From an uncultured Actinomycetes bacterium (GTDB taxonomy: Bacteria; Actinomycetota; CADDZG01; WHSQ01), in the NCBI GenBank assembly GCA_963849115.1, contig CAWKGK010000004.1:49204-113203 (forward strand): a DNA stretch of 64,000 nt. The letters run 5' to 3'. A program made the translations under genes and the position numbers. The notes under the pieces were generated by a model that did not search any database, was not told the origin of the DNA, and saw only the letters and a list, made by a program, of their open reading frames with translations. Within the stretch, counting starts at the first letter, position 1. Each line of letters begins with the position of its first letter. Shown here piece after piece: positions 7,709 to 57,748 of the stretch.

Positions 7709-8530
7709 ATGGAGCAGTATCTCGCCGCCAACCGTGCACTGTGGGACGAGTGGACGGCCATCCACGAGCACTCGAGCTTCTACGACGTCGAGGGCTTCAA
7801 GCGGGGCGGCATCCGTCTGCGCGAATACGAGCTCGCTGAACTCGGCGAAGTGAACGGCAAGGACTTGCTTCACCTCCAATGCCACTTCGGGCTCGACACC
7901 CTCTCCTTCTCCCGGCTCGGCGCACACCCGACCGGCGCCGACTTCTCCGCCGACGCGATCTCGCTTGCTCGATCTCTTGCCGACGAGCTAGAGCTTCGGG
8001 CCAACTTCATCTGCTCCGATCTCTACGACCTGCCCGCCGCTCTGCCGGGCGACTTCGACATCGTCTACACCTCGCGGGGAGTCCTCGGTTGGCTTCCGGA
8101 CATTTGGGCATGGGCGAAGGTAGTCAGGCACTTTCTGCGCCCGGGCGGCGTCTTCTACATCACCGAGAAGCATCCCTTCGCGGATGTGTTCGACGACGAC
8201 ATCCCGTTCAAGGTCAACTACGACTACTTCGGCGGTAAGGAGCCGCAGCGGTTCGAGACCCAGGGCAGTTACGCCGACCCCGAAGCTCACATTGAGCAAC
8301 CCTACGAATACGGATGGTGGCATCCGCTCTCGAACATCATCAGCGCGCTGACATCGCAGGGTTTGCGGATCGACTTCCTCCACGAGTGGCCTTTCTGCGA
8401 ATGGGAGCTGGCCGGGCTCGATCTCAATCTCGAAGACGGCACCTGGCGCCAACCCAAAGGGGAACCGAAGCTGCCGTTGTTCTTCTCGCTACGAGCGACC
8501 AAGCCTGAGGGTTCCTCACCAAGCGGCTAA
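7709..8530 (+). CDS. class I SAM-dependent methyltransferase
   Basis: ATG at 7709. DLLHLQCHFGLDTLSFSRLGA resembles motif I, with a downstream FDIVYTS. Confidence 0.7.
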   Translation: MEQYLAANRALWDEWTAIHEHSSFYDVEGFKRGGIRLREYELAELGEVNGKDLLHLQCHFGLDTLSFSRLGAHPTGADFSADAISLARSLADELELRANFICSDLYDLPAALPGDFDIVYTSRGVLGWLPDIWAWAKVVRHFLRPGGVFYITEKHPFADVFDDDIPFKVNYDYFGGKEPQRFETQGSYADPEAHIEQPYEYGWWHPLSNIISALTSQGLRIDFLHEWPFCEWELAGLDLNLEDGTWRQPKGEPKLPLFFSLRATKPEGSSPSG

Positions 8531-8536
8531 CATTGG

Positions 8537-9136
8537 GTGATGAAAAGACTCATCGTGGTTCTCGCCATCTTCGTCGGTCTCGCGCCCGCCCCCTTAGGGG
8601 CCGCCACCAAGGGTGTCAAGGTCAAAGACAACTTCTTCCAGCCGGCCAACGTGGGCGCGAGAGTGGGGGACTTCGTTCACTGGACCAGGGCGGCAGACTC
8701 CTTCGGAAGTCACAACATCCACGGGGAGAGAAACCTGTTTCACTCCGGGCCGGTGACCATGGGCTCCATCAATTTCAAAGTCCGCTTCTCCGCGGGCAAC
8801 TTCTACTACCGTTGCGACTTCCACGGGGGCGCAAACATGGAGGGCTTTGTTCGAGTGCCGCCCAGTGTGACGGGGGCCCCCAGCGGCCTGCCCTTCACGG
8901 TCCGCTGGGCCACAGGTAAGACAAAGACGGGGGGCAGGTACGCAGTCCAATACCGGGCCGGCTCGAGCAAGACGTGGCGCACCTGGAAGCCCGACACCAT
9001 CACGGTCTCGGGAGTCTTCGGCAAGAGCAAGAAGCCGGTCGCGGTGGTCAACGGAAAAAAGTACTCGTTCAGGGCACGCTCGAAGAACAAGAAGGGGCCC
9101 AGCCACTGGTCCCCGACGCGCACCTTCCGCGCCTAG
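8537..9136 (+). CDS. secreted cupredoxin (type-1 copper) protein with FN3-like C-terminal domain
   Basis: Signal peptide KRLIVVLAIFVGLAPAPLGA. Copper ligands HNIH ... YYRCDFHGGANMEG (C-x2-H-x4-M). Confidence 0.75.
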   Translation: MMKRLIVVLAIFVGLAPAPLGAATKGVKVKDNFFQPANVGARVGDFVHWTRAADSFGSHNIHGERNLFHSGPVTMGSINFKVRFSAGNFYYRCDFHGGANMEGFVRVPPSVTGAPSGLPFTVRWATGKTKTGGRYAVQYRAGSSKTWRTWKPDTITVSGVFGKSKKPVAVVNGKKYSFRARSKNKKGPSHWSPTRTFRA

Positions 9137-9195
9137 CCGCTCACGATCTTCTCACGCTCAGCCCCGGTTAGCGGGGGTGGCGTTGACAAGTGCGC

Positions 9196-10230
9196 TCAAT
9201 GGCTGCCTTGGTGGGTAGAGCCGTGGTGCTGCCAGGCTTCCAGGGCGCCCCGCGCCGCCTCGGTGAGACGGCCTGCCGCGTCGCGCACCAGGAACAGGCC
9301 CGTCATTCCGACATCCGAATGCCCCTGCACATGGCAGTGGTACATCCACGCGCCCGGGCCCACGCCCTCCCCGGCGATGATCTGGAAGCCGAACGAGTCG
9401 GCAGGCCCGCTCGTGCGGTTATCGATCACCTGCACCGGATCGTCGGGCGAGGCCGGGATCCCGGTGCGGTTGTCGGCCCAGCGGTGGCCATGCAGGTGGA
9501 AAGTGTGGAAGAGGTCGCCGTGGGTGATGACGACGAACTCGACTCGTTCCCCCTCGTTCGCCCTGAACAACGGAGTGCGCGGAGCCTCCTTCAGGTTGAT
9601 CCGAGCACCGGGCCCCATCACCACCACGAAGGGATTGCGATCGGGAACGGGATCTCCGGAACGCCGCACGATGAAGGCACCGAACAGGCCGGCGTTGATG
9701 CCGCCGGTGCCGTGGGGTGAGCCGCTGCAGTGATCGTGGTAGTGCCAGTACCCTGCGCTGCCCGCCTCGACGGTGCCGTCGCCGCGCGCGGAGGCTTCGT
9801 GCGTGCTGAAGAAGTACGTGCGAGAGCCGCCGGGTTTGGTGCAGCTCGAATTCAGCCGGGTCCCGTCGGATGCGACGGTGTAGTCGACTCCGTGAGAGTG
9901 GACGCTAACGCGCTTGGTGGTCCGGTTCACGAGCCTTACCGCGAGACATTCGCCCTCCTCCATCTCGAGCGTAGGGCCGGGGATGCTCACCGTCGCCGGA
10001 GAAAAGCCGTAGCCCACGCGCCGAGGTGCTAGACGCTTCGCGTACAGGGTCACCGAGCGGTCGGGGTTGTCGCACGCTTGCGGCGCAACGACCTGCTGGG
10101 CCCCGGTGGATACCGAGCCGAGCAGCGCGGCGACCATCACGGAGGCGGTCACCACCGCAGCCCCGCGGTGCACGAAACCTCTTCGCGGCGGCGACGGCCC
10201 CCCGAGGGGCCGTCGCCTGGGAGTGATCAA
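9196..10230 (-). CDS. two-domain multicopper oxidase (small laccase/SLAC-like) with Tat-type signal
   Basis: All four MCO copper motifs are present: HSHG, WHYHDH, HTFHLHGH and HCHVQGHSDVGM. Length is 344 aa. N-terminal RRGFVHRGAAVV is a twin-arginine-like motif. Confidence 0.85.
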   Translation of the reverse strand: MITPRRRPLGGPSPPRRGFVHRGAAVVTASVMVAALLGSVSTGAQQVVAPQACDNPDRSVTLYAKRLAPRRVGYGFSPATVSIPGPTLEMEEGECLAVRLVNRTTKRVSVHSHGVDYTVASDGTRLNSSCTKPGGSRTYFFSTHEASARGDGTVEAGSAGYWHYHDHCSGSPHGTGGINAGLFGAFIVRRSGDPVPDRNPFVVVMGPGARINLKEAPRTPLFRANEGERVEFVVITHGDLFHTFHLHGHRWADNRTGIPASPDDPVQVIDNRTSGPADSFGFQIIAGEGVGPGAWMYHCHVQGHSDVGMTGLFLVRDAAGRLTEAARGALEAWQHHGSTHQGSH

Positions 10231-10237
10231 CGCCCTT

Positions 10238-11404
10238 CTAGCCTCGAGCCCTCACCGACACCTTCCCCTTCATGAAGGGGTGGAGCATGCAGAGGTACTT
10301 GAAGCCTTCGCGGTTCTTGCGCGTGAACTGGAGCGCGTAGGGCGCCGTCCCCAAATTGGCGCCTTGAAGCCCCGAGTTGCCGTAGTCGCCCCCGTGGTGA
10401 CGCTTGTCTCCCCGCCTGAAGGCGAACCTTGGCTTGATGTCGAGCTCGAGATCGTTCGGGTTGTTACAGAACGGAGGACCCTGGACCTGGGGTGGCTTGT
10501 CAGGTCCCGATCCCGTGTCGCAGAACGGTGCGAAACCGTTCTGGGCGACTTTCGTGGCTTTACCTTGGGGGAAAGTAACCGTGTGGTCCTCGTAGCGCAA
10601 CGACGAGAAGTGCCAGTTGACCTTTTGACCTCTACGGATATGAATCTTTCTCGGATACATCGCTAAAAGAGCGAAGCCCTTGCCGTCGTAACCGGAGAGT
10701 GCATGCTTCACCAACGTGCCCGACGAATCGCGCGTGACCCGGTGGTAATTGAGCAGCCGGTTATGGGCGGCCCGGGCGCGCGCGGCGTCGCGCTTGAGCT
10801 GGCGCTTCTTGTAGCTATCTATCGCGCTCTGCTTGGTGGCGGTCGCACCCTTGGCGACCACCTCGATGCGCATGCGGGCGCGCGGCTGGAGAAGGTTCAG
10901 TGCCCAGAACACGTCGCCGACATCGGCGTTGATCTTGACAACGAACCTCGACCGACCGAAGAAGACGCCGTTGGCCACCACGTGTGACCCATCGTAGCCA
11001 CACGGCTTGGCGCCGTAGCCGCAGCCCTGTTGGGCGTTAAAGACGACTCGGTTGTTGAGCTTGAGATGCTGCTTGCGTTCGTCTTTGTCCCGGAGCGCGA
11101 TCGAGAACTTCTTGCCCACGCCTCTGGTGTGGCTGCCGATCCATTTCTTGATGCGAACGTTAGCCGGCGCCAGTCCGGCGGAACCTTTGAACTTGATCGT
11201 GTCGCCTTTGTGGACCCTGAGCGAAGGCGAGTAGAAGCGGGTCCCTAAAGCGGGAGCGGGAGCCGCGAGTTTGAAGAGCTTCCCGCTCCCGAGGGAGATC
11301 GTGTAGTCGGCCGGAGCCGCGCCGGCCTCCAGCGGAGCTACCAGTAGACTTCCCACTAGCCCCACCACCGCCATGGTCGCGGCCAGCCGCAAACGCCTCG
11401 CCAT
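10238..11404 (-). CDS. secreted double cupredoxin-like copper-binding protein
   Basis: Signal peptide. C-terminal type-1 Cu pattern EDHTVTF ... YLCMLHPFMKG (H, C-x2-H-x2-M). An earlier plastocyanin-like segment LRVHKGDTIKFK. The gene ends 8 bp upstream of the MCO start codon. Confidence 0.7.
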   Translation of the reverse strand: MARRLRLAATMAVVGLVGSLLVAPLEAGAAPADYTISLGSGKLFKLAAPAPALGTRFYSPSLRVHKGDTIKFKGSAGLAPANVRIKKWIGSHTRGVGKKFSIALRDKDERKQHLKLNNRVVFNAQQGCGYGAKPCGYDGSHVVANGVFFGRSRFVVKINADVGDVFWALNLLQPRARMRIEVVAKGATATKQSAIDSYKKRQLKRDAARARAAHNRLLNYHRVTRDSSGTLVKHALSGYDGKGFALLAMYPRKIHIRRGQKVNWHFSSLRYEDHTVTFPQGKATKVAQNGFAPFCDTGSGPDKPPQVQGPPFCNNPNDLELDIKPRFAFRRGDKRHHGGDYGNSGLQGANLGTAPYALQFTRKNREGFKYLCMLHPFMKGKVSVRARG

Positions 11405-11586
11405 TGAGCCCTCCTATCCGTTGAGCGGTCCTGGGCATCAAATCCCGACTCGCCGGTGCGAGTCAAGCCTTATGCCCGCAACTTTAGCCTCCTTGAACAG
11501 AGACGATACTTCGAGGCATCAGCTTCCTACCCGATCGTCTGGGAATCGTTACGAAACTGTTGCCGATCAAAGAAAACGGATGAACT

Positions 11587-13026
11587 TCACACGAACCCGA
11601 ACTTCTCAAAATGAATTCGCCGACGGGGGACGCCGAGCTCGACAAACTGATGTTCGAGCACGTCGATCATCGCCGGGGGCCCGCAGATAAGGATGTCCTT
11701 GTCGCTGAGGCCAGGGGTCAGCCCGGCAATGTCCGAGGCGGTTACGAAGCCGAGCCGGTCCCTGCGGATAGGCGCCACTCGAAGCCGCGGGACCCGATCG
11801 GCGATGTCGTAGAGCTCGTCGAGAAAATAGCCCTGGTGGCCGTCCTCCATGCAATAGTAGAAGTCGATTTCGTGATCTCCGGTCTGAAGGCTACGGGCCA
11901 TACTCAGAAACGGCGTCAGACCTATGCCCCCGGCAATCCACACCTGGCGGTGGTTGTTCACGGTGAGATACGAGAAGCTGCCGTAGGGCCCTTCGACGCG
12001 GACGCCGGCCCCGGGCTCGAGGTTCGCCATCGCCCGCGTATAGTCGCCCACCGCCTTTACCACGACCCTGAGCTCACGCTCGGTGGGACCGGATGTAATG
12101 GAAAAGGGATGATACTGATTGGCGACCTCGCCGGGACGCACCGAAACCACCCCAAAATCGCCCTCCGCGTGGATCAAGAAGGGCCGGAAGCTGCGCTTCA
12201 TGGCCTCGGACTCGAACGTTACGTAGACGAACTGTCCTGGGGTAAACGAAAGCGAGCCGTCTCCCTCCTGTCGCGATCGCCGAGCCGATCGCTCGTCTCC
12301 ATTCTGTCGCGATCGCCGAGCCGATCGCTCGTCGCGGGGAACCATCGACACCTCGATGACGTCGTGGCCGACGACCCTCACGGAGTCGATGACGTAGGAG
12401 CGACGGGGCACGAGGCGCTCGCCCAGCAGCGAGCGATAGATCCAGGCGCCCAGGCCCAAAGCGAAAAGGCTTGAGAGGTACAGGGTCAAGGGCCTCGATA
12501 TCGCCTTGGTCCCGGGCACGAGGAAGACGTGCAGCGCGGCCAGACAGAACACGAAGCCGAAGAAGCGCTGCACGTAGACGAACGTCTCGTGGCCCAGGCG
12601 CGCGTAAAGTGTTAGTGCGATCGTGACCGCCATGAGCACGAGAGCGATCAGCCCGAAAGTCACCGCCCAGCTGCCGCCTGTGGGCAAAAGAAAGCGGAGG
12701 CCTGCAGTACCCGATGCTGCAACCCGGGCAGCCGCCATCACTACGCCGTGGCCCATGAGCAACAAGAAGGCGAGGCGACCGTTGGCGCGATGTGCTCCGT
12801 AAAGTTTGTCAAGACCCCCGAATGCGCTCTCCAACAGTTTGATGCGACCGCCCAACACGAGGTTGAGCGCAAAGGAAGACACGCCGGCCAGCGCGAGCAG
12901 GGTGCCGACACTCGTCAGGGACTGGGCGGCTCCCGCGAAGCGGGGGCCCAGAGGGGCGGCCATCACCCACAACACGAGCGGCACGATGCACACCGCCGCC
13001 ATGACGAAGACCCCCGCGCGTCTCAT
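11587..13026 (-). CDS. ferric-reductase/NOX-type transmembrane flavocytochrome (FRD domain + FAD + NAD(P)H domains)
   Basis: N-terminal polytopic domain with a His pair spaced by 13 residues (HRANGRLAFLLLMGH). HPFS FAD motif (YHPFSITSG). GGIGLTPF and CGPPAM NAD(P)H-domain motifs. Confidence 0.8.
   Translation of the reverse strand: MRRAGVFVMAAVCIVPLVLWVMAAPLGPRFAGAAQSLTSVGTLLALAGVSSFALNLVLGGRIKLLESAFGGLDKLYGAHRANGRLAFLLLMGHGVVMAAARVAASGTAGLRFLLPTGGSWAVTFGLIALVLMAVTIALTLYARLGHETFVYVQRFFGFVFCLAALHVFLVPGTKAISRPLTLYLSSLFALGLGAWIYRSLLGERLVPRRSYVIDSVRVVGHDVIEVSMVPRDERSARRSRQNGDERSARRSRQEGDGSLSFTPGQFVYVTFESEAMKRSFRPFLIHAEGDFGVVSVRPGEVANQYHPFSITSGPTERELRVVVKAVGDYTRAMANLEPGAGVRVEGPYGSFSYLTVNNHRQVWIAGGIGLTPFLSMARSLQTGDHEIDFYYCMEDGHQGYFLDELYDIADRVPRLRVAPIRRDRLGFVTASDIAGLTPGLSDKDILICGPPAMIDVLEHQFVELGVPRRRIHFEKFGFV
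12268..12333 (-). repeat. in-frame tandem duplication, two 30-bp identical copies with 36-bp period
   Basis: ctgtcgcgatcgccgagccgatcgctcgtc occurs at 12268-12297 and again at 12304-12333. It encodes ERSARRSRQNGD / ERSARRSRQEGD inside the reductase. Confidence 0.9.
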
Positions 13027-13030
13027 GGGC

Positions 13031-14203
13031 TCAACTAAAGGCGCGCAAGCCGGTGAGCGCCTCGCCGAGGATGAGCGTGTGGATCTCGCTGGTGCCTTCG
13101 TAGGTGAGCACCGACTCGAGATTGTTCATGTGTCGTATCACCGGATACTCCAGCGTGATCCCCGAAGCACCGAGGATGGTGCGGGCCTTTCTCGCCACCT
13201 CCAGCGCCTCGCGCACGTTGTTGAGCTTGCCTAAGCTGACCTGCTCGACTGCAAGCTCGGATGCGTCCTTCAAGCGGCCGAGATGAAGCGCGACCAAGAG
13301 TCCCTTCTGGATCTCGAGCATCATTTCGACGAGCTTCTGCTGTGTGAGCTGGAAGGCGCCGATGGGACGCTCGAACTGCGCGCGAGACTTGGAATACTCG
13401 AGCGCGCACTCATAGCACGAGCGCGCCGCTCCCATCGAACCCCACACGATTCCGAAGCGAGCCTCACTAAGACAGCTCAGGGGCCCTTTGAGCCCCGAGA
13501 CGCCCGGCAGGAGCGCATTACCTGGAACCCTGCAGTCGTCGAAATGCAGCTCCGATGTCACCGATGCGCGCAGCGACAGCTTCCGCTTGATGTCTCGAGT
13601 ATGAAAACCTGAGGTGCCGGCGGGGACCAGGAAGCCCCTGATTCCCTGCTCGGTTACCGCCCACACCACCGCGACCCCGGCGATCGAGCCGTTCGTGATC
13701 CACATCTTGGAGCCGTTCAGCACCCAGTCCGAGCCGTCCTTGCGGGCGCTCGTCCTCATACGGGAGGGGTCGGAGCCGGCGTCTGGCTCGGTCAGCCCGA
13801 AGCAGCCGATGACCTCGCCGGTGGCCATCCTCGGAAGCCACTCTGCTTTCTGCTCCTCGGAGCCGTAGGAGTGGATCGGAAACATCGCCAGCGAACCCTG
13901 GACCGAGACGAAGCTGCGGAAGCCAGAATCTGCGGCCTCGAGCTCGAGACAGGCGAGGCCGTAGCCGACTGCATTTACACCGGCGCAGCCGTAGCCCTGC
14001 AGGTGCATGCCGAGGAGACCGAGCCGGCCGAGCTCCTCTGCGATCTCGCGCGGGAACTCTGCGTTCTCAAACCACTCTTCGATTCCGGGAAGAAGCCGAT
14101 GAACGGCGAAGCGCCGCACGGTCTCCTGGAGCATGCGCTCCTCCTCGCTGAAAAGCGCACTCAGGCCGAGAAAGTCGAGAGGATCCGGGTGGGGCCGGCT
14201 CAC
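13031..14203 (-). CDS. acyl-CoA dehydrogenase (glutaryl-CoA dehydrogenase-like)
   Basis: ACAD-family sequence throughout, with a GCDH-like N-terminus DFLGLSALFSEEERML. GTG at 14203 is preferred over ATG at 14287, which would overlap the divergent HAD gene. Confidence 0.8.
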   Translation of the reverse strand: MSRPHPDPLDFLGLSALFSEEERMLQETVRRFAVHRLLPGIEEWFENAEFPREIAEELGRLGLLGMHLQGYGCAGVNAVGYGLACLELEAADSGFRSFVSVQGSLAMFPIHSYGSEEQKAEWLPRMATGEVIGCFGLTEPDAGSDPSRMRTSARKDGSDWVLNGSKMWITNGSIAGVAVVWAVTEQGIRGFLVPAGTSGFHTRDIKRKLSLRASVTSELHFDDCRVPGNALLPGVSGLKGPLSCLSEARFGIVWGSMGAARSCYECALEYSKSRAQFERPIGAFQLTQQKLVEMMLEIQKGLLVALHLGRLKDASELAVEQVSLGKLNNVREALEVARKARTILGASGITLEYPVIRHMNNLESVLTYEGTSEIHTLILGEALTGLRAFS

Positions 14204-14264
14204 CGGCGGATAGGGTCGTTCGTCCGAAGTTGTAGGTCCATGGGGTGAGGCTAACCGGAGGCGA

Positions 14265-15047
14265 ATGCACTTCTCATTGCACGACATCGAGGGAGTCGTG
14301 TGCGATCTCGACGGCGTCGTTTACCGGGGCAGCAGCGCTCTCCCCGGAGCAGTCGAGGCGATCGCCCAGATGCAGGCACAGGGAATCAAAGTGCTGTTCT
14401 GCACCAACAACTCTCGCGCCACGCTTGCCCAGTACGCCGCCAAGCTCGAAGGTATGGGTATCGAGGTGCCCCGAGAGCTGATCCTGACCTCGGCCATTGT
14501 GCTCGGCGAGGTGTTGCGGGCGCGGTCCCCGCGCCCCAAGAGCGCCTTCGTCATCGGCGGGGACGGCGTGCGCGAGGGAGTCCAGAATGCCGGGGTAGAG
14601 GTCTCGGATCACGACGAAGTCGATGTGGTCGCAATTGGGTGGGACCCGGGTTTCACCTATGACCACCTCCGCCGTGCGACCTTCGCGCTACATCGGGGAG
14701 CCGCTCTCATCGCCACCAACGCCGACGCCACCTTTCCGGCCGAGGAGGGAAGGCTGTTGCCGGGAGCGGGCCCGATCGTGGCCGCGGTCGAGGTCGCCGG
14801 CGGAGTGAAGGCGGAGGTGCTGGGCAAGCCGCACCGATCCATGATGGAGGCCGCCGCGGCCCGGCTCGCCCCGGCGACTCGGATCGCCGTCATCGGCGAC
14901 CGGGCCGAGACCGATCTCGCCGGGGGCCACGCCATGGGCTGGAGAACGATCCTGGTGCTATCCGGGGTGACCTCTGCGCAGCAGGCGCAAGCGCTCGAAC
15001 CTCCACCCGACGCGATAGTCGAAAGCCTCGCAGAACTGGCGACCTGA
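14265..15047 (+). CDS. HAD-IIA family hydrolase (NagD-like)
   Basis: DLDGVVY motif I, CTNNS motif II and a C-terminal GDRAETD motif. Confidence 0.8.
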   Translation: MHFSLHDIEGVVCDLDGVVYRGSSALPGAVEAIAQMQAQGIKVLFCTNNSRATLAQYAAKLEGMGIEVPRELILTSAIVLGEVLRARSPRPKSAFVIGGDGVREGVQNAGVEVSDHDEVDVVAIGWDPGFTYDHLRRATFALHRGAALIATNADATFPAEEGRLLPGAGPIVAAVEVAGGVKAEVLGKPHRSMMEAAAARLAPATRIAVIGDRAETDLAGGHAMGWRTILVLSGVTSAQQAQALEPPPDAIVESLAELAT

Positions 15048-53030: not shown

Positions 53031-54191
53031 ATGCACTTGTGGATTAGTCGACTTACGTTTATCGCTTCGAGCCTGCTCATATTCGGGTCTCCTTGTTTGC
53101 ACCCGGCAACGGCGCGCCCCAGGCCCGGCGGGGTCACCTGCCGCGCTTGTGTCGTCGTCGACGACACCGGCGCGACCCTGTGGGCGCGCCGGGCCAAGAC
53201 ACCACTGGCGAACGCCAGTACCACCAAGATGCTCACCGCACTCACCGTGCTCGAGCTGGGCACCAAGGCTCAGCGCGAGGTCGTGGTTTCGGAGCAGGCG
53301 GCGGCCACCGGTGGGGGAGGTCTCGACCTCGAGACCGGCGACGTGCTGACGGCCGAGGAGCTTCTGTACGCCATGCTGTTGAGCTCATCCAACGATGCCT
53401 CGGTTGCCCTCGCCGAGCATGCGGCAGGGTCGGAACGCGCCTTTGTTGCCGCGATGAATTCGCACGCCATCCATCTCGGAGCGCTCGACTCCCACTTCGT
53501 CACACCTCACGGGCTCGACACACCCGGGCATCGCGCGACTGCGTCGGACCTGGCGCTCGTCGGGGCAGAGCTGTTGAGCCACCCTCTGCTAAAACGCATA
53601 GTCGGCACCGAGCAACGCAAGGTGGTCGGGCCCGACGGGCCGGAGAAGCTTAAAAACAGTAACCCTCTACTTGGGACCTATCGAGGCGTGATGGGCATCA
53701 AGACCGGGTTCACCGATGGGGCCGGGGAGGTGCTGGTGGTGGCGGCGCAGCGGCACCGGCGACGCCTCATCGCCGTGGCGATGGGATCACGAGATGCCGC
53801 TGCCGATTCCAGGAGACTGCTCGACTATGGCTGGTCCAGGCTGGCGCGCTCGTTGCTTCTGCGAGAGGGAGAGGCGGTAGGCGAGGTCACGGTCGGAGAT
53901 GGCGGTTCGGTCGTCGCAGTGGCGGGCGACTCGGTGCGCGGATGGGCGAGGCCCGAGGAGGTCAGCTCGCACTTCGTGGCCAGAGAAGACCTCTCGGGCG
54001 CGAGCGTGGGAGAGCCGGTGGGAAGGGTCGACGTCTATCGGGCCGGCCGGCGGATCGCCATTGCGACCGCCCTCTCGGCGGGCTCGCTGCCGGCGGCTGC
54101 GCCCGAACCCACCCCCGTGGGGGAGGCGTTGGGAACCCTTCTGGGACACGCCTTTCGGATCGCTTCATTGCTGGGCGCCTCCCCCCCATGA
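53031..54191 (+). CDS. D-alanyl-D-alanine carboxypeptidase (serine peptidase S11)
   Basis: SxxK (ASTTK), SxN (SSND) and KTG (KTGFT) motifs. N-terminal signal/anchor. Confidence 0.85.
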   Translation: MHLWISRLTFIASSLLIFGSPCLHPATARPRPGGVTCRACVVVDDTGATLWARRAKTPLANASTTKMLTALTVLELGTKAQREVVVSEQAAATGGGGLDLETGDVLTAEELLYAMLLSSSNDASVALAEHAAGSERAFVAAMNSHAIHLGALDSHFVTPHGLDTPGHRATASDLALVGAELLSHPLLKRIVGTEQRKVVGPDGPEKLKNSNPLLGTYRGVMGIKTGFTDGAGEVLVVAAQRHRRRLIAVAMGSRDAAADSRRLLDYGWSRLARSLLLREGEAVGEVTVGDGGSVVAVAGDSVRGWARPEEVSSHFVAREDLSGASVGEPVGRVDVYRAGRRIAIATALSAGSLPAAAPEPTPVGEALGTLLGHAFRIASLLGASPP

Positions 54192-54784
54192 CGCAGCCGG
54201 TCGGCCCTGCCCGTCCTCTCATTTCTGAGGAGCAGCTTCGCCGCCGTGTGGCGGGGTTGGGGACCGAGATAACACGCGCCTATACCGCGCCGCCCCATGC
54301 CCTCGTTGTCGTGGGCGTCCTCAAGGGATCGACTCTCTTTCTCGCCGACCTCCTGCGAGCAATTCCCCTGGACACAGAGATCGATTTCATCGCGATCTCG
54401 AGCTATTCGCAGGGTCCAGACCCCCAGTCGGGAGTGGTGCGCATCGTCAAGGACCTCGACCACGATATCTCCGGCCGTGACGTGCTCCTGGTAGAGGACA
54501 TCGTCGACACTGGTTTGACTCTCAACTACCTGAGACGAGCCCTCCTCGAGCGAGAGCCACGCACGTTGGCAACGGTCGCCCTGCTGGACAAGACCGCACG
54601 TCGCATCGTCCCCGTTCCGATCGAGTATCGAGGCTTCGAGATACCAGATGTCTTCGTGGTGGGATACGGCCTCGACTTTCAGGGTCGTTATCGCAACCTG
54701 CGGGCGATCCAGGCGGTCTCCGATCTTGCACGCCTGGCGAACGAACCGCGTCTACTGGAGCCTTCCTGGTGGCGCAGCACTTAG
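54188..54784 (+). CDS. hpt: hypoxanthine phosphoribosyltransferase
   Basis: ATGA overlap with the preceding gene. PRPP motif VLLVEDIVDTGLT. Confidence 0.9.
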   Translation: MTQPVGPARPLISEEQLRRRVAGLGTEITRAYTAPPHALVVVGVLKGSTLFLADLLRAIPLDTEIDFIAISSYSQGPDPQSGVVRIVKDLDHDISGRDVLLVEDIVDTGLTLNYLRRALLEREPRTLATVALLDKTARRIVPVPIEYRGFEIPDVFVVGYGLDFQGRYRNLRAIQAVSDLARLANEPRLLEPSWWRST

Positions 54785-54855
54785 CGCACGTCCGAAGGCG
54801 GAGCGGAGCACGTTGCTCGCCACTTTCCAATAAGAGGGGTGTTAGCCTTCTCAGC

Positions 54856-55335
54856 ATGATCGAGCTATCGCTCGTGGGGGTCCGCGTTGAGCTTCCCTCC
54901 AACCAGCCCATCGTTCTCCTAAAGGAATCGGGGGGAGACCGCTATCTCCCGATTTGGATCGGGGCAGGCGAGGCCACGGCCATCGCTTTCGCTCTGGGAG
55001 GGGTGGAAACGCCGCGTCCCATGACCCACGATCTGATGCGCGATCTTTTGCGCGAGACCGAGACCACGGTAGAGAGGATTCTCATCTCCGAGCTCGTGGA
55101 CTCGACCTTCTACGCACTCATCAAGGTCAGCGCCGACAACGGCACCAAGGAGGTCTCGTCGCGTCCCAGTGATGCGATCGCCTTGGCGGTCCGCATCAAC
55201 GCTCCCATTTTCGCTGCTGAGGACGTGCTCGAGCAGGCGGGTATCGAACTTCGGGACGAAGAAGAGAGCGAGGTCGAGAAGTTTCGTGAGTTTCTCGATC
55301 AGGTCACTCCAGAGGATTTCGCGGGCGGGAGCTGA
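54856..55335 (+). CDS. bifunctional nuclease family protein (DUF151, Rv1829-like)
   Basis: NQPIVLLKE...RYLPIWIGAGEATAIAFAL...RPMTHDL pattern. Confidence 0.8.
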   Translation: MIELSLVGVRVELPSNQPIVLLKESGGDRYLPIWIGAGEATAIAFALGGVETPRPMTHDLMRDLLRETETTVERILISELVDSTFYALIKVSADNGTKEVSSRPSDAIALAVRINAPIFAAEDVLEQAGIELRDEEESEVEKFREFLDQVTPEDFAGGS

Positions 55336-55402
55336 CGCAGGCGCCGAATCCCGCCTGAGACCTCTTCACCTCTAGGCGAGGATGAAAGTTGGGATCGGAA
55401 GA

Positions 55403-55431
55403 TTGACACCGGCGAGGCCTTCCCCTATTCT
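55403..55431 (+). promoter_or_regulatory. sigma-70-like promoter TTGACA, 17-nt spacer, TATTCT
   Basis: Consensus -35 with exact 17-nt spacing. It would give a ~120-nt leader before the GTG at 55560. Confidence 0.5.
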
Positions 55432-55559
55432 TTCATTGGCGTAACTACCGCTGTGTGACTCCGTGTCTTGGAGCACCGGCCCGGCTTCATCGGTCGGCGC
55501 GCCTCCGACCACTCGGCCCTCGAAGAAGTCGGCGGGCCCTTGAAGAGAAGGAAGGCGTC

Positions 55560-56033
55560 GTGCAGAGCACCGGATACAGAGGCCCGCAAGCGTGCAAGAT
55601 AGTCGGCGTCACCTACCGGCAGCTCGACTACTGGACCCGCACGGAGCTGATCACCCCTTCGCTGCGGGCGGCCCAGGGCTCCGGAACGCAGCGCCTCTAC
55701 TCGTTCAACGATCTGCTACAACTCAAGGTCATCAAGAGCCTTACAGACGCAGGGGCAAGCCTCCAAAAGGTACGCCAGGCGATCGAGTACGTGCGAGAGA
55801 ATCTGTCCGGCGATCCCAGCGCAGTCACCATCGTGGCGGACGGTGCAGGCGTCTATGCATGCACCACCGACTCCGAGATCATCGATCTGCTCCGCTCGGG
55901 CCAGGGGGTGCTCGGCGCGGTTGTCGCGGTGGGCAAGGTCCGAGATGAGCTCAACGGCGACCTGAAGCGGCTGCAGCCGCGGCCCGCTGAAGCAGCACAG
56001 GCTCGCAACCTGGCACAGGCCCAAGAGCACTAG
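55560..56033 (+). CDS. MerR family transcriptional regulator (Rv1830-like)
   Basis: GTG at 55560 after GAAGGAAGG. ACKIVGVTYRQLDYWTRTELITPS...RLYSFNDLLQLKVI. Confidence 0.8.
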   Translation: MQSTGYRGPQACKIVGVTYRQLDYWTRTELITPSLRAAQGSGTQRLYSFNDLLQLKVIKSLTDAGASLQKVRQAIEYVRENLSGDPSAVTIVADGAGVYACTTDSEIIDLLRSGQGVLGAVVAVGKVRDELNGDLKRLQPRPAEAAQARNLAQAQEH

Positions 56034-56049
56034 TGCACGTCCCTGCGAT

Positions 56050-56502
56050 GTGGGCCACCCACTCATAGCGGGCGCCCGAGCTTCGCAGGAGTTTTCTGAG
56101 GATCTGCCCGGACATGTGCGGATAGCGTTCGCTCACAACAGCGAGCGCCAGTTTGCAAAGTTGCTTGATTTCTACATGATCGAATGGCGGTACGAACCGA
56201 CCGCCTTCGATATCGACTGGAACGAGAACGGCTCCGTCACCCGGCGCTTCGCCCCCGACTTCTATCTTCCGGAGTTCGATCTCTACATAGAGATCACGAC
56301 CTTGAACCAAAAACTCGTCACCAAGAAGAACCGCAAGGTTCGGCGTCTAACCGCCCTCTATCCGGACGTGCGCTGCAAGATCCTATATCAGAAGGACTAT
56401 CTCAATCTGCTTGTCAAATACGGGCTCGAGGAGCCGTCTCAGGGTTCCTTGCTACGAAACAGCTCACAAGCCCTATCAGAAGATGCCCAAACGGTTTTCT
56501 GA
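56050..56502 (+). CDS. hypothetical protein with PD-(D/E)xK nuclease-like motif
   Basis: SERQFAKLLDFYMIEWRYEPTAF...FAPDFYLPEFDLYIEITTLNQK resembles restriction-endonuclease-fold/TnsA-N-like cores. GC is visibly lower than the flanks. Confidence 0.45.
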   Translation: MGHPLIAGARASQEFSEDLPGHVRIAFAHNSERQFAKLLDFYMIEWRYEPTAFDIDWNENGSVTRRFAPDFYLPEFDLYIEITTLNQKLVTKKNRKVRRLTALYPDVRCKILYQKDYLNLLVKYGLEEPSQGSLLRNSSQALSEDAQTVF

Positions 56503-56542
56503 CCGTTCTCACCGCTGAAACGAACCGGTAGATACTCCTTAC

Positions 56543-57748
56543 TCAAAACATTGGGTACCAGGCTACGAAGTAAGCGGCGATTAGAGCCTGTCCCGCTCCG
56601 AGGAAGAGGGTGACGGGGACGTGCACAGAGGTCCGCTCGGTGAGTCGCGCCAGGACCCAGAACAATGGAAACAGCACCAAGAGAAAACGCGGGACAGACA
56701 TCAGCGGACGGGCGGGGAACACGAAGCTCAAAATGACGGCGAGGTTTCCCCAGACGTAGATCGCATAGGGGGCCCGCAGCCACCGCGGCGACCACAGAGC
56801 AAGCGCCAACACGGGAATGACCAGCAGCCAGTCGATCCGGTGCCACAGTGCATCGAAGCGCCATGCGAAGTTCGTGGCCTGGGAAATCGTCTCCCAAGGC
56901 CACGATGCCTCGCGCAGCCATTGGGCTTGCGAGCTAAACGGTTGCAGTGCGTTTCCCGATCGCAGGCGCCAGAAGACCAGGTATGCCGCGGCCCCCGAGA
57001 AGCTTGCCGCCACCGGTCCCATGACGGACGCGATCGTGGCCACCACCCCGCGGCGACGATCGTGGTGCTGAGCGAGCGCTTCGAGAGCAAGCGGCACAGC
57101 GAGGATCACTCCCAGCGACCGCGTGCCAGATGCTACGGCCGCGCACAACGCGGCCACCCACCAATGCTTGCAGCGAGCAGCCAGCAGAGCGGCCACCGAG
57201 AAGCATAGAAACATCGACTCCGAATAGGGGGCCGCGAGAAAGAAGGCGGTGGGAAAGAGCGCAAGGTATAGAACGCTGCGGCGCGCCACCGGCTCACCGA
57301 ACTCGCGCGTTCCAAGCAAATAGAAGAGCACCAGAGCAGCAACGCTGAAACCGGCCGACATAACTAGGGCGGCACCCAATGCATGCCCGTCGAACACAGT
57401 TGTGAGTGCGCGTGTGGCCAGCGGATAGCCCGGCCAGAACGCCGCACTCCCGTCGTTGAGCCGGTATCCGTCGGCTGCAATTCGCAGGAACCAGAGCGCG
57501 TCCCAACGCTCCAGAGCAGTTCCCACAAACTCGGCCGCTCCTTGTGCCCTCGGCGCGGGCCATCCCGGAACGCCGACGGGTTCAGAGCTTTGCATCCGTC
57601 CGGCAACGAAGCTCACGACGGTCAATCCGAGGCGACTGCACAGCAGCACGGTCACGCAATAGACAAAGGCCCGGCGCGTCGTGTGACCGAGAAGCCCGAC
57701 TTCCGAAGGGGCGCGCACGTGCGGATCTGCGATCGTCGCGTGCATCAA
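56543..57748 (-). CDS. GT-C type membrane mannosyltransferase-like protein (PIG-V-like)
   Basis: Polytopic, with a WDALWFLRIAADGY motif like the PIG-V/Gpi18 family WDxxxFLxIAxxGY. Confidence 0.6.
   Translation of the reverse strand: MMHATIADPHVRAPSEVGLLGHTTRRAFVYCVTVLLCSRLGLTVVSFVAGRMQSSEPVGVPGWPAPRAQGAAEFVGTALERWDALWFLRIAADGYRLNDGSAAFWPGYPLATRALTTVFDGHALGAALVMSAGFSVAALVLFYLLGTREFGEPVARRSVLYLALFPTAFFLAAPYSESMFLCFSVAALLAARCKHWWVAALCAAVASGTRSLGVILAVPLALEALAQHHDRRRGVVATIASVMGPVAASFSGAAAYLVFWRLRSGNALQPFSSQAQWLREASWPWETISQATNFAWRFDALWHRIDWLLVIPVLALALWSPRWLRAPYAIYVWGNLAVILSFVFPARPLMSVPRFLLVLFPLFWVLARLTERTSVHVPVTLFLGAGQALIAAYFVAWYPMF

What the first reader, a model, noticed from the sequence alone, without database searches (positions are those of the whole stretch)
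8537..13026. Copper/heme redox island: NOX/FRE-type reductase next to a double cupredoxin, a Tat-exported two-domain laccase and a cupredoxin-FN3 protein
Seen in sequence: three consecutive minus-strand genes plus one convergent gene. The first is 11587-13026, a ferric-reductase-domain membrane flavocytochrome with a His pair spaced by 13 residues and HPFS, GGIGLTPF and CGP motifs. The second is 10238-11404, a secreted protein with a type-1 Cu site (HTVTF ... C-x2-H-x2-M). The third is 9196-10230, a 344-aa multicopper oxidase with all four Cu motifs and an RRGF twin-arginine signal; it starts 8 bp after the cupredoxin gene ends. The convergent gene is 8537-9136, a cupredoxin (C-x2-H-x4-M) fused to an FN3-like domain. 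Established knowledge: yeast couples the FRE ferric/cupric reductase to the Fet3 multicopper ferroxidase. Bacterial NOX homologues such as SpNOX and small two-domain laccases such as SLAC exist but are usually described singly. Inference: these genes could form an electron path from cytoplasmic NAD(P)H across the membrane to extracytoplasmic blue-copper carriers and an oxidase. That would suit reductive or oxidative Fe/Cu handling or detoxification. No Ftr1/EfeU-type permease or copper chaperone is visible in the window, so the analogy is incomplete.
Basis: partly seen in the sequence, partly recalled or inferred. Interest (0 to 1): 0.6.

Follow-up and report, generated by a model that had tools for sequence, protein, structure and literature searches.

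The report
NOX-like reductase beside laccase copper genes
An uncultured soil actinobacterium has a membrane NAD(P)H-driven electron exporter next to a small laccase and two blue-copper proteins, but this neighbourhood exists only in one narrow lineage, so a shared electron chain is possible and not shown.

Summary
All four genes are real and correctly typed. They are a SpNOX-like ferric-reductase-domain flavocytochrome, a secreted protein with two cupredoxin domains, a SLAC-type two-domain laccase, and a secreted cupredoxin with a beta-sandwich tail.

The neighbourhood is not conserved. The reductase and laccase are adjacent only in this genus-level lineage. Across 86 genomes of the family their presence is uncorrelated (odds ratio 0.51). 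In the two other genomes that carry both on one contig they lie 285 and 462 kb apart. Of about 157 further reductase loci, only one close relative has the cluster.

In sister genera the laccase sits after the glycine-cleavage genes, next to a cupredoxin-NosD-like protein that this genome lacks. The two cupredoxin proteins form their own pair elsewhere. The reductase is 4 nt from an acyl-CoA dehydrogenase and 182 nt from the copper genes.

One part of the idea has outside support. Relatives of this reductase are fused to an exported cytochrome c, are followed at 29 nt by a tethered cupredoxin (one case), or are followed by a tethered cytochrome b5 (42 of 80 loci, already published for CPR bacteria).

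The reductase clade has a shifted haem-ligand set: Gln replaces the canonical fourth His, and a new invariant His lies seven residues upstream.

Verdict: ordinary parts in a lineage-specific arrangement. I put coupling of the reductase to the copper proteins at about 30%.

The parts
13031..14287 (-). Acyl-CoA dehydrogenase. Its stop codon is 4 nt before the reductase start, so it is the reductase's likely operon partner.
   Evidence: Pfam Acyl-CoA_dh_N, _M and _1. The same adjacency is seen in G001, G003, G004, L053 and the P0008 contig. It is not next to the reductase in other genera.
11587..13026 (-). SpNOX-like transmembrane flavocytochrome: ferric-reductase membrane domain plus FAD and NAD(P)H domains. 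His79, His93, His146 and His166 are invariant. Gln153 sits at the canonical fourth haem-ligand position.
   Evidence: Five hydropathy peaks, with a weaker sixth hydrophobic stretch read from the sequence.
12258..12333 (-). In-frame 36-bp tandem duplication. It inserts ERSARRSRQxGD twice between the membrane domain and the FAD barrel.
   Evidence: TRF finds 2.1 copies at 95% match. There are two copies in G000 and G001, one in G003, and none in other genera.
11405..11586 (-). 182-nt spacer between the reductase and the cupredoxin gene. It is AT-richer than its surroundings and has blocks conserved within the genus (AAGGAGG; TTGAC, 17-18 nt, GGGATTTGAT). It possibly holds a separate promoter.
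   Evidence: The consensus scan found nothing, there is no Rfam match, and the motif occurs nowhere else in the genome.
10238..11404 (-). Secreted protein with two cupredoxin domains joined by a long helix. The C-terminal type-1 Cu site is intact (H274, C372, H375, M378). The N-terminal site is lost.
9196..10230 (-). SLAC-type (type B) two-domain laccase with a twin-arginine leader. It starts 7 nt after the cupredoxin gene.
8537..9136 (+). Secreted cupredoxin (H59, C93, H96, M101) with a C-terminal beta-sandwich (FN3-like) domain. It is convergent with the laccase and starts 6 nt after a methyltransferase gene.
7736..8530 (+). Class I SAM methyltransferase directly upstream of the cupredoxin-FN3 gene. 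The start codon is uncertain.
   Evidence: Pfam Methyltransf_25, _12 and _11. The adjacency is kept in G001, G002, L053 and the P0008 contig.

Best explanation
The locus is a lineage-specific juxtaposition of three separately inherited units. It is not a conserved system.

Unit A is an acyl-CoA dehydrogenase gene plus a SpNOX-like membrane flavocytochrome. The flavocytochrome takes electrons from cytoplasmic NAD(P)H through FAD and b-type haem to the outer face of the membrane.

Unit B is a two-gene operon. It encodes a secreted two-cupredoxin-domain protein with one working type-1 copper site, and a Tat-exported SLAC-type two-domain laccase that reduces O2 to water.

Unit C is a methyltransferase gene plus a secreted cupredoxin with a beta-sandwich tail.

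Shown here: the family assignments, the metal-ligand residues, the gene spacing, and the distribution of each unit in other genomes.

Inferred: the two cupredoxin proteins are one-electron carriers that work with the laccase. In this genus they would take the place of the cupredoxin-NosD-like protein that sits next to the laccase in sister genera and is absent from this genome.

Whether the reductase supplies those carriers is open. I put it at roughly 30%.
For: Identities.

The laccase has a different conserved context elsewhere:
- In 12 other genera it lies in hpt, DUF151-type nuclease, merR, gcvT, gcvPA, gcvPB, PIG-V-like, laccase.
- In 9 of those 12 it is followed by a 500-560-aa cupredoxin-NosD-like protein.
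- In this genome the hpt-to-PIG-V genes lie 45 kb away at window 53139-57682, the gcv genes are on another contig, and no cupredoxin-NosD protein is found.

The 388-aa and 199-aa proteins are adjacent on one strand, with no laccase between them, in two other lineages: G024:C19 and L135, where the 199-aa homologue is 50% identical. Three other homologue loci of the 388-aa protein have neither laccase nor reductase.

Reductase neighbourhoods are heterogeneous.

The phyletic profiles of reductase and laccase are independent in 86 genomes.

Spacers: 4 nt between acd and the reductase, 182 nt between the reductase and the cupredoxin gene, 7 nt between the cupredoxin gene and the laccase.
Against: - The cluster order is kept down to 59% reductase identity (P0009 contig). 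That is somewhat deeper than a single species group.
- Relatives of this reductase in the same clade are fused to an exported cytochrome c (P0117, P0120, L140-L142, L144).
- One relative (L139) is followed at 29 nt by a tethered cupredoxin.
- Distant relatives pair with a tethered cytochrome b5 in 42 of 80 loci.

A secreted cupredoxin gene just downstream of the reductase therefore fits a recurring pattern, and the adjacency may be functional.
Confidence: 0.55

Rival explanations
1. One reading: NAD(P)H, then FAD, then haem b of the reductase, then the type-1 copper of the 388-aa and/or 199-aa protein, then the type-1 copper of the laccase, then O2. That would be an extracytoplasmic NAD(P)H:O2 route independent of quinones and cytochrome oxidase. 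It could serve redox balancing or O2 and copper stress.
For: - All partners have the right topology: the reductase's outer haem side faces out, and the other three proteins have Sec or Tat leaders.
- The cluster is kept at 59-97% reductase identity.
- The same clade shows cytochrome c fusions and one operonic cupredoxin.
- Cytochrome b5 partners occur in 42 of 80 distant loci.
- The published view is that SpNOX may have a protein acceptor (PMC11564096).
- Established knowledge: NirK, the structural cousin of two-domain laccases, takes electrons from cupredoxins.
Against: - There is no co-occurrence or co-localisation outside one narrow lineage.
- Lineages at 58% and 53% reductase identity lack the copper genes.
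- Cupredoxins occur within 8-10 kb of a reductase homologue in only 3 of about 165 other loci. By my rough estimate that is about the chance rate.
- The 182-nt spacer has promoter-like conserved blocks.
- The reductase is tightly linked to an acyl-CoA dehydrogenase instead.
Confidence: 0.28
2. The reductase is a true superoxide- or peroxide-forming NADPH oxidase. With the laccase it supplies extracellular oxidants for attack on phenolic or humic polymers. The cupredoxins would be accessory.
For: SpNOX consumes O2 in vitro (PMC5676040 and PMC11564096). From general knowledge, small laccases oxidise phenolics. The relatives come from soil and desert metagenomes.
Against: The synteny argument is the same as above. 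SpNOX's O2 reduction may not be physiological. Nothing in the locus points to aromatic polymer degradation.
Confidence: 0.07
3. The locus is a yeast Fre/Fet3-like iron or copper uptake system: the reductase mobilises the metal and the multicopper oxidase re-oxidises it for a permease.
For: Both enzyme classes are present. An FTR1-family gene exists in the genome.
Against: - The FTR1 gene is on another contig (C9:789771), not near the locus.
- The oxidase is a SLAC-type laccase at roughly 60% identity by eye in the alignment, not a Fet3/EfeO-type ferroxidase.
- SpNOX's ferric reductase activity is very low.
- There is no conserved linkage.
Confidence: 0.05

Closest known systems
SpNOX, the Streptococcus pneumoniae NADPH oxidase homologue (PDB 8QT6, 8QQ7; Hajjar 2017 PMC5676040; Dubach 2024 PMC11564096)
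   Same: It has the same single-chain architecture: ferric-reductase membrane domain plus FAD and NAD(P)H domains. It matches at E 1e-25 over both parts. HPFS, GGIGxTPF and CGP are present, and three of the four haem His align (H79=H69, H93=H83, H166=H142).
   Different: - The inner-haem ligand H129 is replaced by Gln153.
- Tyr123 is replaced by an invariant His146.
- This pattern (HHHQH) holds in 32 of 41 clade members, against HHYHH in 111 of 121 distant homologues.
- There is an Arg/Ser-rich duplicated insert.
- The physiological acceptor is unknown for both proteins.
SLAC, the small two-domain laccase of Streptomyces coelicolor and relatives (PDB 3CG8, 9IX9, 5LHL)
   Same: It has two cupredoxin domains, all four copper motifs, the type-1 site in domain 2 and a twin-arginine leader. 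The match is E 1e-103 to 1e-107.
   Different: The genomic partners differ. Here the neighbours are a two-domain cupredoxin protein and a cupredoxin-FN3 protein. In sister genera the neighbour is a cupredoxin-NosD-like protein.
CPR 'pFre'-cytochrome b5 operon (bioRxiv 10.1101/2021.11.17.468889)
   Same: It is a homologous reductase (about 30-35% identical) with a small membrane-tethered redox protein encoded directly downstream. I saw this in 42 of 80 loci.
   Different: The partner there is a haem b5 domain and the gene is tightly coupled. Here the downstream gene is a cupredoxin after a 182-nt spacer, and no b5 gene is nearby. The only Cyt-b5 hit in this genome is on contig C2.
MsrPQ of Gram-negative bacteria
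   Same: A ferric-reductase-domain haem protein passes electrons across the membrane to a dedicated periplasmic protein. This precedent is cited in PMC11564096.
   Different: MsrQ has no fused dehydrogenase domain and its partner is a molybdoenzyme. Nothing comparable is encoded here.
Yeast Fre1 / Fet3 / Ftr1
   Same: A NOX-family reductase and a multicopper oxidase occur in the same organism.
   Different: There is no linked permease. The oxidase is a laccase-type two-domain enzyme. There is no conserved linkage.
NirK with pseudoazurin or azurin
   Same: From general knowledge, a trimeric two-cupredoxin-domain copper enzyme receives single electrons from a small blue-copper protein. This is the mechanistic model for cupredoxin-to-laccase transfer.
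   Different: The enzyme here has a trinuclear O2-reducing cluster, not a type-2 nitrite site.

Membership tests
Bacterial NOX as defined by Hajjar et al. 2017 (PMC5676040) | FAD motif H[PSA]F[TS][LIMV] | tested here: met
   HPFSI at residues 306-310. HPFS is invariant in 121 homologues.
Bacterial NOX as defined by Hajjar et al. 2017 (PMC5676040) | [quoted passage not shown] | tested here: inconclusive
   The window protein has GIGLTP. The Leu at position 4 is outside the published set. Relatives have Ile (65) or Val (41) there. This is a conservative change.
Bacterial NOX as defined by Hajjar et al. 2017 (PMC5676040) | Two His-X12/14-His pairs, in TM3 and TM5 (four haem ligands) | tested here: not met
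   TM3 H79-x13-H93 is present. In TM5 the position aligned with SpNOX H129 is Gln153, so the only His pair is H146-x19-H166.
Bacterial NOX as defined by Hajjar et al. 2017 (PMC5676040) | Six transmembrane helices followed by a cytoplasmic dehydrogenase domain | tested here: met
   There are five hydropathy peaks above threshold, and I read a weaker sixth stretch (about 178-197) from the sequence. The alignment to SpNOX covers residues 48-226 and 281-478. No dedicated topology predictor was available.
Bacterial NOX as defined by Hajjar et al. 2017 (PMC5676040) | Haem b and FAD content; NAD(P)H-dependent O2 or cytochrome c reduction | not testable with these tools
   This needs expression and spectroscopy.
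SLAC-type (type B) two-domain laccase | Two cupredoxin domains only, about 280-340 aa | tested here: met
   Cu-oxidase_3 at 82-190 and Cu-oxidase_2 at 217-317, in 344 aa.
SLAC-type (type B) two-domain laccase | Four copper motifs (HxH, HxH, HxxHxH, HCHx3Hx4M) with the type-1 site in domain 2 | tested here: met
   HSH, HYHDH, HTFHLHGH and HCHVQGHSDVGM align with the Streptomyces enzymes.
SLAC-type (type B) two-domain laccase | Twin-arginine export signal | tested here: inconclusive
   The PRRGFV motif followed by a hydrophobic stretch is visible in the sequence. No Tat predictor was available.
SLAC-type (type B) two-domain laccase | Homotrimer with trinuclear clusters at the subunit interfaces | not testable with these tools
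   Not modelled.
Type-1 (blue) copper protein / cupredoxin | His, Cys, His, Met ligand set in a cupredoxin fold | tested here: met
   388-aa protein: H274, C372, H375 and M378 are invariant. The fold matches cupredoxin proteins. Pfam Copper-bind scores 21.1 bits against a 21.2 cut-off.
199-aa protein: H59, C93, H96 and M101 are invariant. Only weak NCBIfam plastocyanin and halocyanin hits were found.
   - Adjacent only in genus g1 and close metagenomic relatives.
- 86 family genomes give an odds ratio of 0.51.
- None of 78 non-genus genome loci, and only one of 80 metagenome loci (a close relative), has the copper genes within 8-10 kb of a reductase homologue.
Fre/Fet3/Ftr1-type metal uptake | Linked Ftr1/EfeU permease | tested here: not met
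   The only FTR1 match is at G000:C9:789771-790262, on another contig.

The most novel reading that the evidence does not exclude
In this actinobacterial lineage a SpNOX-like flavocytochrome with a relocated inner-haem ligand (H-x19-H in TM5) is the NAD(P)H-driven donor to a blue-copper relay that ends in a small laccase acting as terminal oxidase.

If true, this would name a physiological acceptor for bacterial NOX homologues, which is stated as unknown in PMC11564096. It would also name a physiological electron donor for SLAC-type laccases. It would fit a wider rule that these reductases use interchangeable tethered carriers: cytochrome b5, cytochrome c or cupredoxin.
Probability: 0.2. Interest if true: 0.75.

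Novelty: new member of a known kind. Interest (0 to 1): 0.38.

Why it matters
The natural electron acceptor of bacterial NADPH-oxidase homologues is an acknowledged open question, and so is the in vivo role of small laccases. This locus offers one concrete, cheap test: does the reductase reduce the neighbouring cupredoxins, and do they feed the laccase?

The comparative evidence says the neighbourhood itself is recent and lineage-specific, so it should not be read as a conserved system.

The more general results are three:
- The actinobacterial clade of these reductases has a different haem-ligand pattern from SpNOX.
- That clade is repeatedly fused to an exported cytochrome c.
- In this family the laccase is normally partnered with a cupredoxin-NosD-like protein.

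Tried and rejected
- Promoter and terminator consensus scan of 8300-14600: no promoter-like site, and terminator-like sites at the shuffle level.
- Rfam at a permissive threshold on 8000-15000: nothing.
- The palindrome GACTCGC-accg-GCGAGTC and the TTGAC...GGGATTTGA element upstream of the cupredoxin gene: each occurs nowhere else in the genome with that spacing, so no regulon could be defined.
- Literature search for a published cytochrome b5, ferric reductase and Patescibacteria link with all three terms: 0 papers. A second search found the 2021 preprint.
- Cupredoxin HMM scan of about 170 reductase loci, to see whether cupredoxin adjacency is enriched: only L032, L139 and L068 outside the genus. 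I estimate that as about chance, so it is rejected as statistical support.
- Fold search of the 199-aa model: the model confidence is low (pLDDT 64.6), so the FN3 call rests on weak ground.
- The C-terminal extension of the G072 reductase (one helix plus a Cys-rich 170-aa domain): no Pfam family.
- I considered that Gln153 means a dead enzyme. I rejected this because 113 of 121 close homologues have it, including the cytochrome c fusions.


Full report
**Observation**

The four ORFs are at the stated coordinates.

- The 479-aa product of 11587-13026(-) carries Ferric_reduct, FAD_binding_8 and NAD_binding_1. Its best solved relative is the Streptococcus pneumoniae NADPH oxidase homologue SpNOX (8qt6, E 1e-25), matched over both the membrane and the dehydrogenase parts.
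- The 344-aa product of 9196-10230(-) is a SLAC-type two-domain laccase. It matches Streptomyces enzymes at E 1e-103 to 1e-107 with all four copper motifs aligned, and it has an RRGF twin-arginine leader.
- The 388-aa product of 10238-11404(-) has an invariant type-1 copper set, H274, C372, H375 and M378. Its AlphaFold model (pLDDT 79.7) shows two beta-sandwich domains joined by a long helix. The best PDB matches are two-domain laccases, NirK, amicyanin and plastocyanin.
- The 199-aa product of 8537-9136(+) has invariant H59, C93, H96 and M101. A low-confidence model resembles tandem FnIII-type sandwiches.

**Corrections to the observation**

First, the reductase has only one canonical His pair, H79-x13-H93.
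- The residue aligned with the SpNOX inner-haem ligand H129 is Gln153. An invariant His146 lies seven residues upstream, where SpNOX has Tyr123.
- Across 162 homologues taken from fetched loci, the pattern at these five positions is HHHQH in 32 of 41 members of the 40%-or-more identity actinobacterial clade, and HHHHH in 7.
- It is HHYHH in 111 of 121 distant homologues.
- This is a correlated replacement, not decay. The Gln form is also the one fused to cytochrome c.

Second, the N-terminal cupredoxin domain of the 388-aa protein has lost its copper site.
- The FHT segment is deleted, and Cys, His and Met have become Asn, Gln and Ala.
- Its 53%-identical paralogue on contig C9 and more distant homologues keep H...C-x2-H-x2-M.

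**Is the neighbourhood conserved?**

It is not conserved beyond a narrow lineage.
- In the 41 nearest genomes, the order reductase, 388-aa protein, laccase, 199-aa protein is present in G000, G001 and G003. It is cut by contig ends in G002 and G004. All five belong to one genus.
- Metagenome contigs with reductases 89%, 87%, 76% and 59% identical show the same order, together with the same flanking housekeeping genes. This is therefore general synteny.
- Contigs with reductases 58% and 53% identical have unrelated neighbours.
- In all 86 genomes of the family, the counts are: both genes 26, reductase only 18, laccase only 31, neither 11 (odds ratio 0.51, Fisher p 0.18).
- In the two other genomes with both genes on one contig, they are 285 kb and 462 kb apart.
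- None of 78 non-genus loci from species-representative genomes has any of the three copper genes within 10 kb of a reductase homologue. Among 80 metagenome loci only one, a close relative, has them.

**What each unit normally sits with**

- *Laccase.* In 12 other genera the laccase lies at the end of a conserved run: hpt, DUF151-type nuclease, merR, gcvT, gcvPA, gcvPB, PIG-V-like membrane protein, laccase. In 9 of the 12 it is followed directly by a 500-560-aa protein with an N-terminal cupredoxin and a NosD-like beta-helix. In this genome the hpt-to-PIG-V genes are at window 53139-57682, the gcv genes are on another contig, and no cupredoxin-NosD protein is found. The laccase was therefore relocated in this lineage.
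- *The two cupredoxin proteins.* The 388-aa and 199-aa proteins are adjacent on one strand, with no laccase between them, in G024 and in metagenome locus L135, where the 199-aa homologue is 50% identical. They are a pair in their own right, and here the laccase gene sits between them.
- *Reductase.* The reductase has no constant neighbour in its own family. In one subclade it is followed by an SdhA/L-aspartate-oxidase-like flavoprotein.

**Local gene spacing**

The spacing points to three transcription units.
- The acyl-CoA dehydrogenase stop is 4 nt before the reductase start.
- A 182-nt AT-richer spacer follows the reductase. It has genus-conserved blocks (AAGGAGG; TTGAC, 17-18 nt, GGGATTTGAT).
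- The 388-aa gene and the laccase are 7 nt apart.
- The 199-aa gene is convergent and lies 6 nt after a methyltransferase gene.
- Consensus promoter and terminator scans and Rfam gave nothing.

- In the same actinobacterial clade, six reductases carry a C-terminal extension made of one transmembrane helix and a CxxCH cytochrome c domain. These are P0117, P0120, L140, L141, L142 and L144.
- One reductase (L139, 48% identical) is followed at 29 nt by a membrane-anchored cupredoxin that passes the Pfam cut-offs.
- One reductase (G008) has an LPXTG-anchored cupredoxin 1.2 kb downstream.
- In distant clades (CPR bacteria, DPANN archaea, Dehalococcoidia), 42 of 80 loci have a gene for a membrane-tethered cytochrome b5 immediately downstream. 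This pairing was already reported for CPR bacteria in a 2021 preprint.
- The SpNOX structure paper states that O2 may not be the physiological acceptor and that a protein acceptor may exist.
- A secreted one-electron carrier encoded just downstream of such a reductase is therefore a recurring theme.

Against this, cupredoxins as such are rare near these reductases. They occur in 3 of about 165 loci outside the genus, which I estimate as roughly the chance rate for genomes that encode several cupredoxins.

**Most likely mechanism**

Shown:
- The reductase has the cofactor motifs needed to move electrons from NAD(P)H via FAD and b haem to the outside.
- The laccase has a complete type-1 site and trinuclear copper ligand set.
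- Each cupredoxin protein has one intact type-1 site and a signal peptide.

Inferred:
- The 388-aa protein and the laccase are co-translated and act together, with the cupredoxin delivering single electrons to the laccase type-1 site. This is how NirK, the structural cousin of two-domain laccases, is served by pseudoazurin.
- In this genus the cupredoxin pair substitutes for the missing cupredoxin-NosD partner.

Whether the reductase loads these carriers is undecided. I give about 30% to coupling of the reductase to the cupredoxins and about 20% to the full chain to O2 through the laccase. The Fre/Fet3 analogy is weak because the only FTR1 gene is on another contig and the oxidase is laccase-type.

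**Comparison with known systems, and novelty**

All four proteins are members of known families.
- The reductase fails the strict published NOX filter on the TM5 His pair. It differs by one conservative residue in the NADPH motif.
- It works like SpNOX but belongs to an actinobacterial subfamily with a shifted ligand.
- The cluster is a lineage-specific arrangement.
- I rate the finding as a new member of a known kind, of moderate interest. It is useful mainly as a testable candidate for the unknown acceptor of bacterial NOX homologues.

Earlier notes of this scan on CPR genomes raise the same idea of interchangeable carriers. I treated them as leads and re-derived the b5 pairing independently.

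Noticed in passing
window 11587-13026 (residues 146 and 153 of the reductase): There is a correlated haem-ligand change in the actinobacterial clade. His146 replaces Tyr, and Gln153 replaces the canonical inner-haem His (pattern HHHQH, 32 of 41). Distant homologues and SpNOX are HHYHH (111 of 121). Seven sequences have both His. This suggests the inner-haem ligand moved two helical turns towards the cytoplasm.
   Followed up: partly
window 12258-12333: An in-frame 36-bp tandem duplication gives ERSARRSRQxGD twice, between the membrane domain and the FAD barrel. There are two copies in G000 and G001, one in G003, and none in other genera.
   Followed up: partly
L039-L048 (other genera); absent from G000: In 9 of 12 sister genera the SLAC-type laccase is directly followed by a 500-560-aa protein with an N-terminal cupredoxin and a NosD-like beta-helix. 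The pair sits after gcvT-gcvPA-gcvPB and a PIG-V-like membrane protein. This looks like a conserved laccase partner that I have not seen described.
   Followed up: partly
window 53139-57682: The genes that flank the laccase in other genera lie here, 45 kb from the laccase. They are a 300-aa gene, hpt, a DUF151-type nuclease, merR and a PIG-V-like gene. This points to an intra-regional rearrangement in this lineage. The gcv genes have moved to contig C9.
   Followed up: partly
window 10238-11404 versus G000:C9:1098479-1099669: The genome has two copies of the two-domain cupredoxin protein (53% identical). The copy next to the laccase has lost the N-terminal copper site, and the distant copy keeps both sites.
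   Followed up: partly
P0117, P0120; L140-L142, L144: Reductases 48-50% identical to the window's carry a C-terminal transmembrane helix plus a monohaem cytochrome c domain (CGDCH). These are natural fusions that place a redox carrier outside the membrane.
   Followed up: partly
L219 (G072:C228) 3-2042: One family member has a different C-terminal fusion: one helix, then a Cys-rich domain of about 170 aa with no Pfam match.
   Followed up: partly
L059, L060, L072, L145, L150, L152 and others: In one actinobacterial subclade the reductase gene is followed closely by a 579-aa SdhA/L-aspartate-oxidase-like flavoprotein (FAD_binding_2 + Succ_DH_flav_C).
   Followed up: partly
G000:C8:419789-422612 (outside the window): The genome has a second copper cluster. 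It consists of a Tat-signal multicopper-oxidase-like protein (HTMHFHGF, HCH), then a ZIP-like membrane protein, then a small cupredoxin-like ORF.
   Followed up: no
window 11405-11586: The spacer upstream of the cupredoxin gene keeps AAGGAGG and TTGAC, 17-18 nt, GGGATTTGAT in four related genomes. A perfect 7-bp palindrome (GACTCGC-accg-GCGAGTC) overlaps the TTGAC in three of them.
   Followed up: partly
window 14265-14287: The called starts of the divergent HAD-hydrolase and acyl-CoA dehydrogenase ORFs overlap by 23 bp. The dehydrogenase start is probably further downstream, since a related contig aa against 418 aa here.
   Followed up: no
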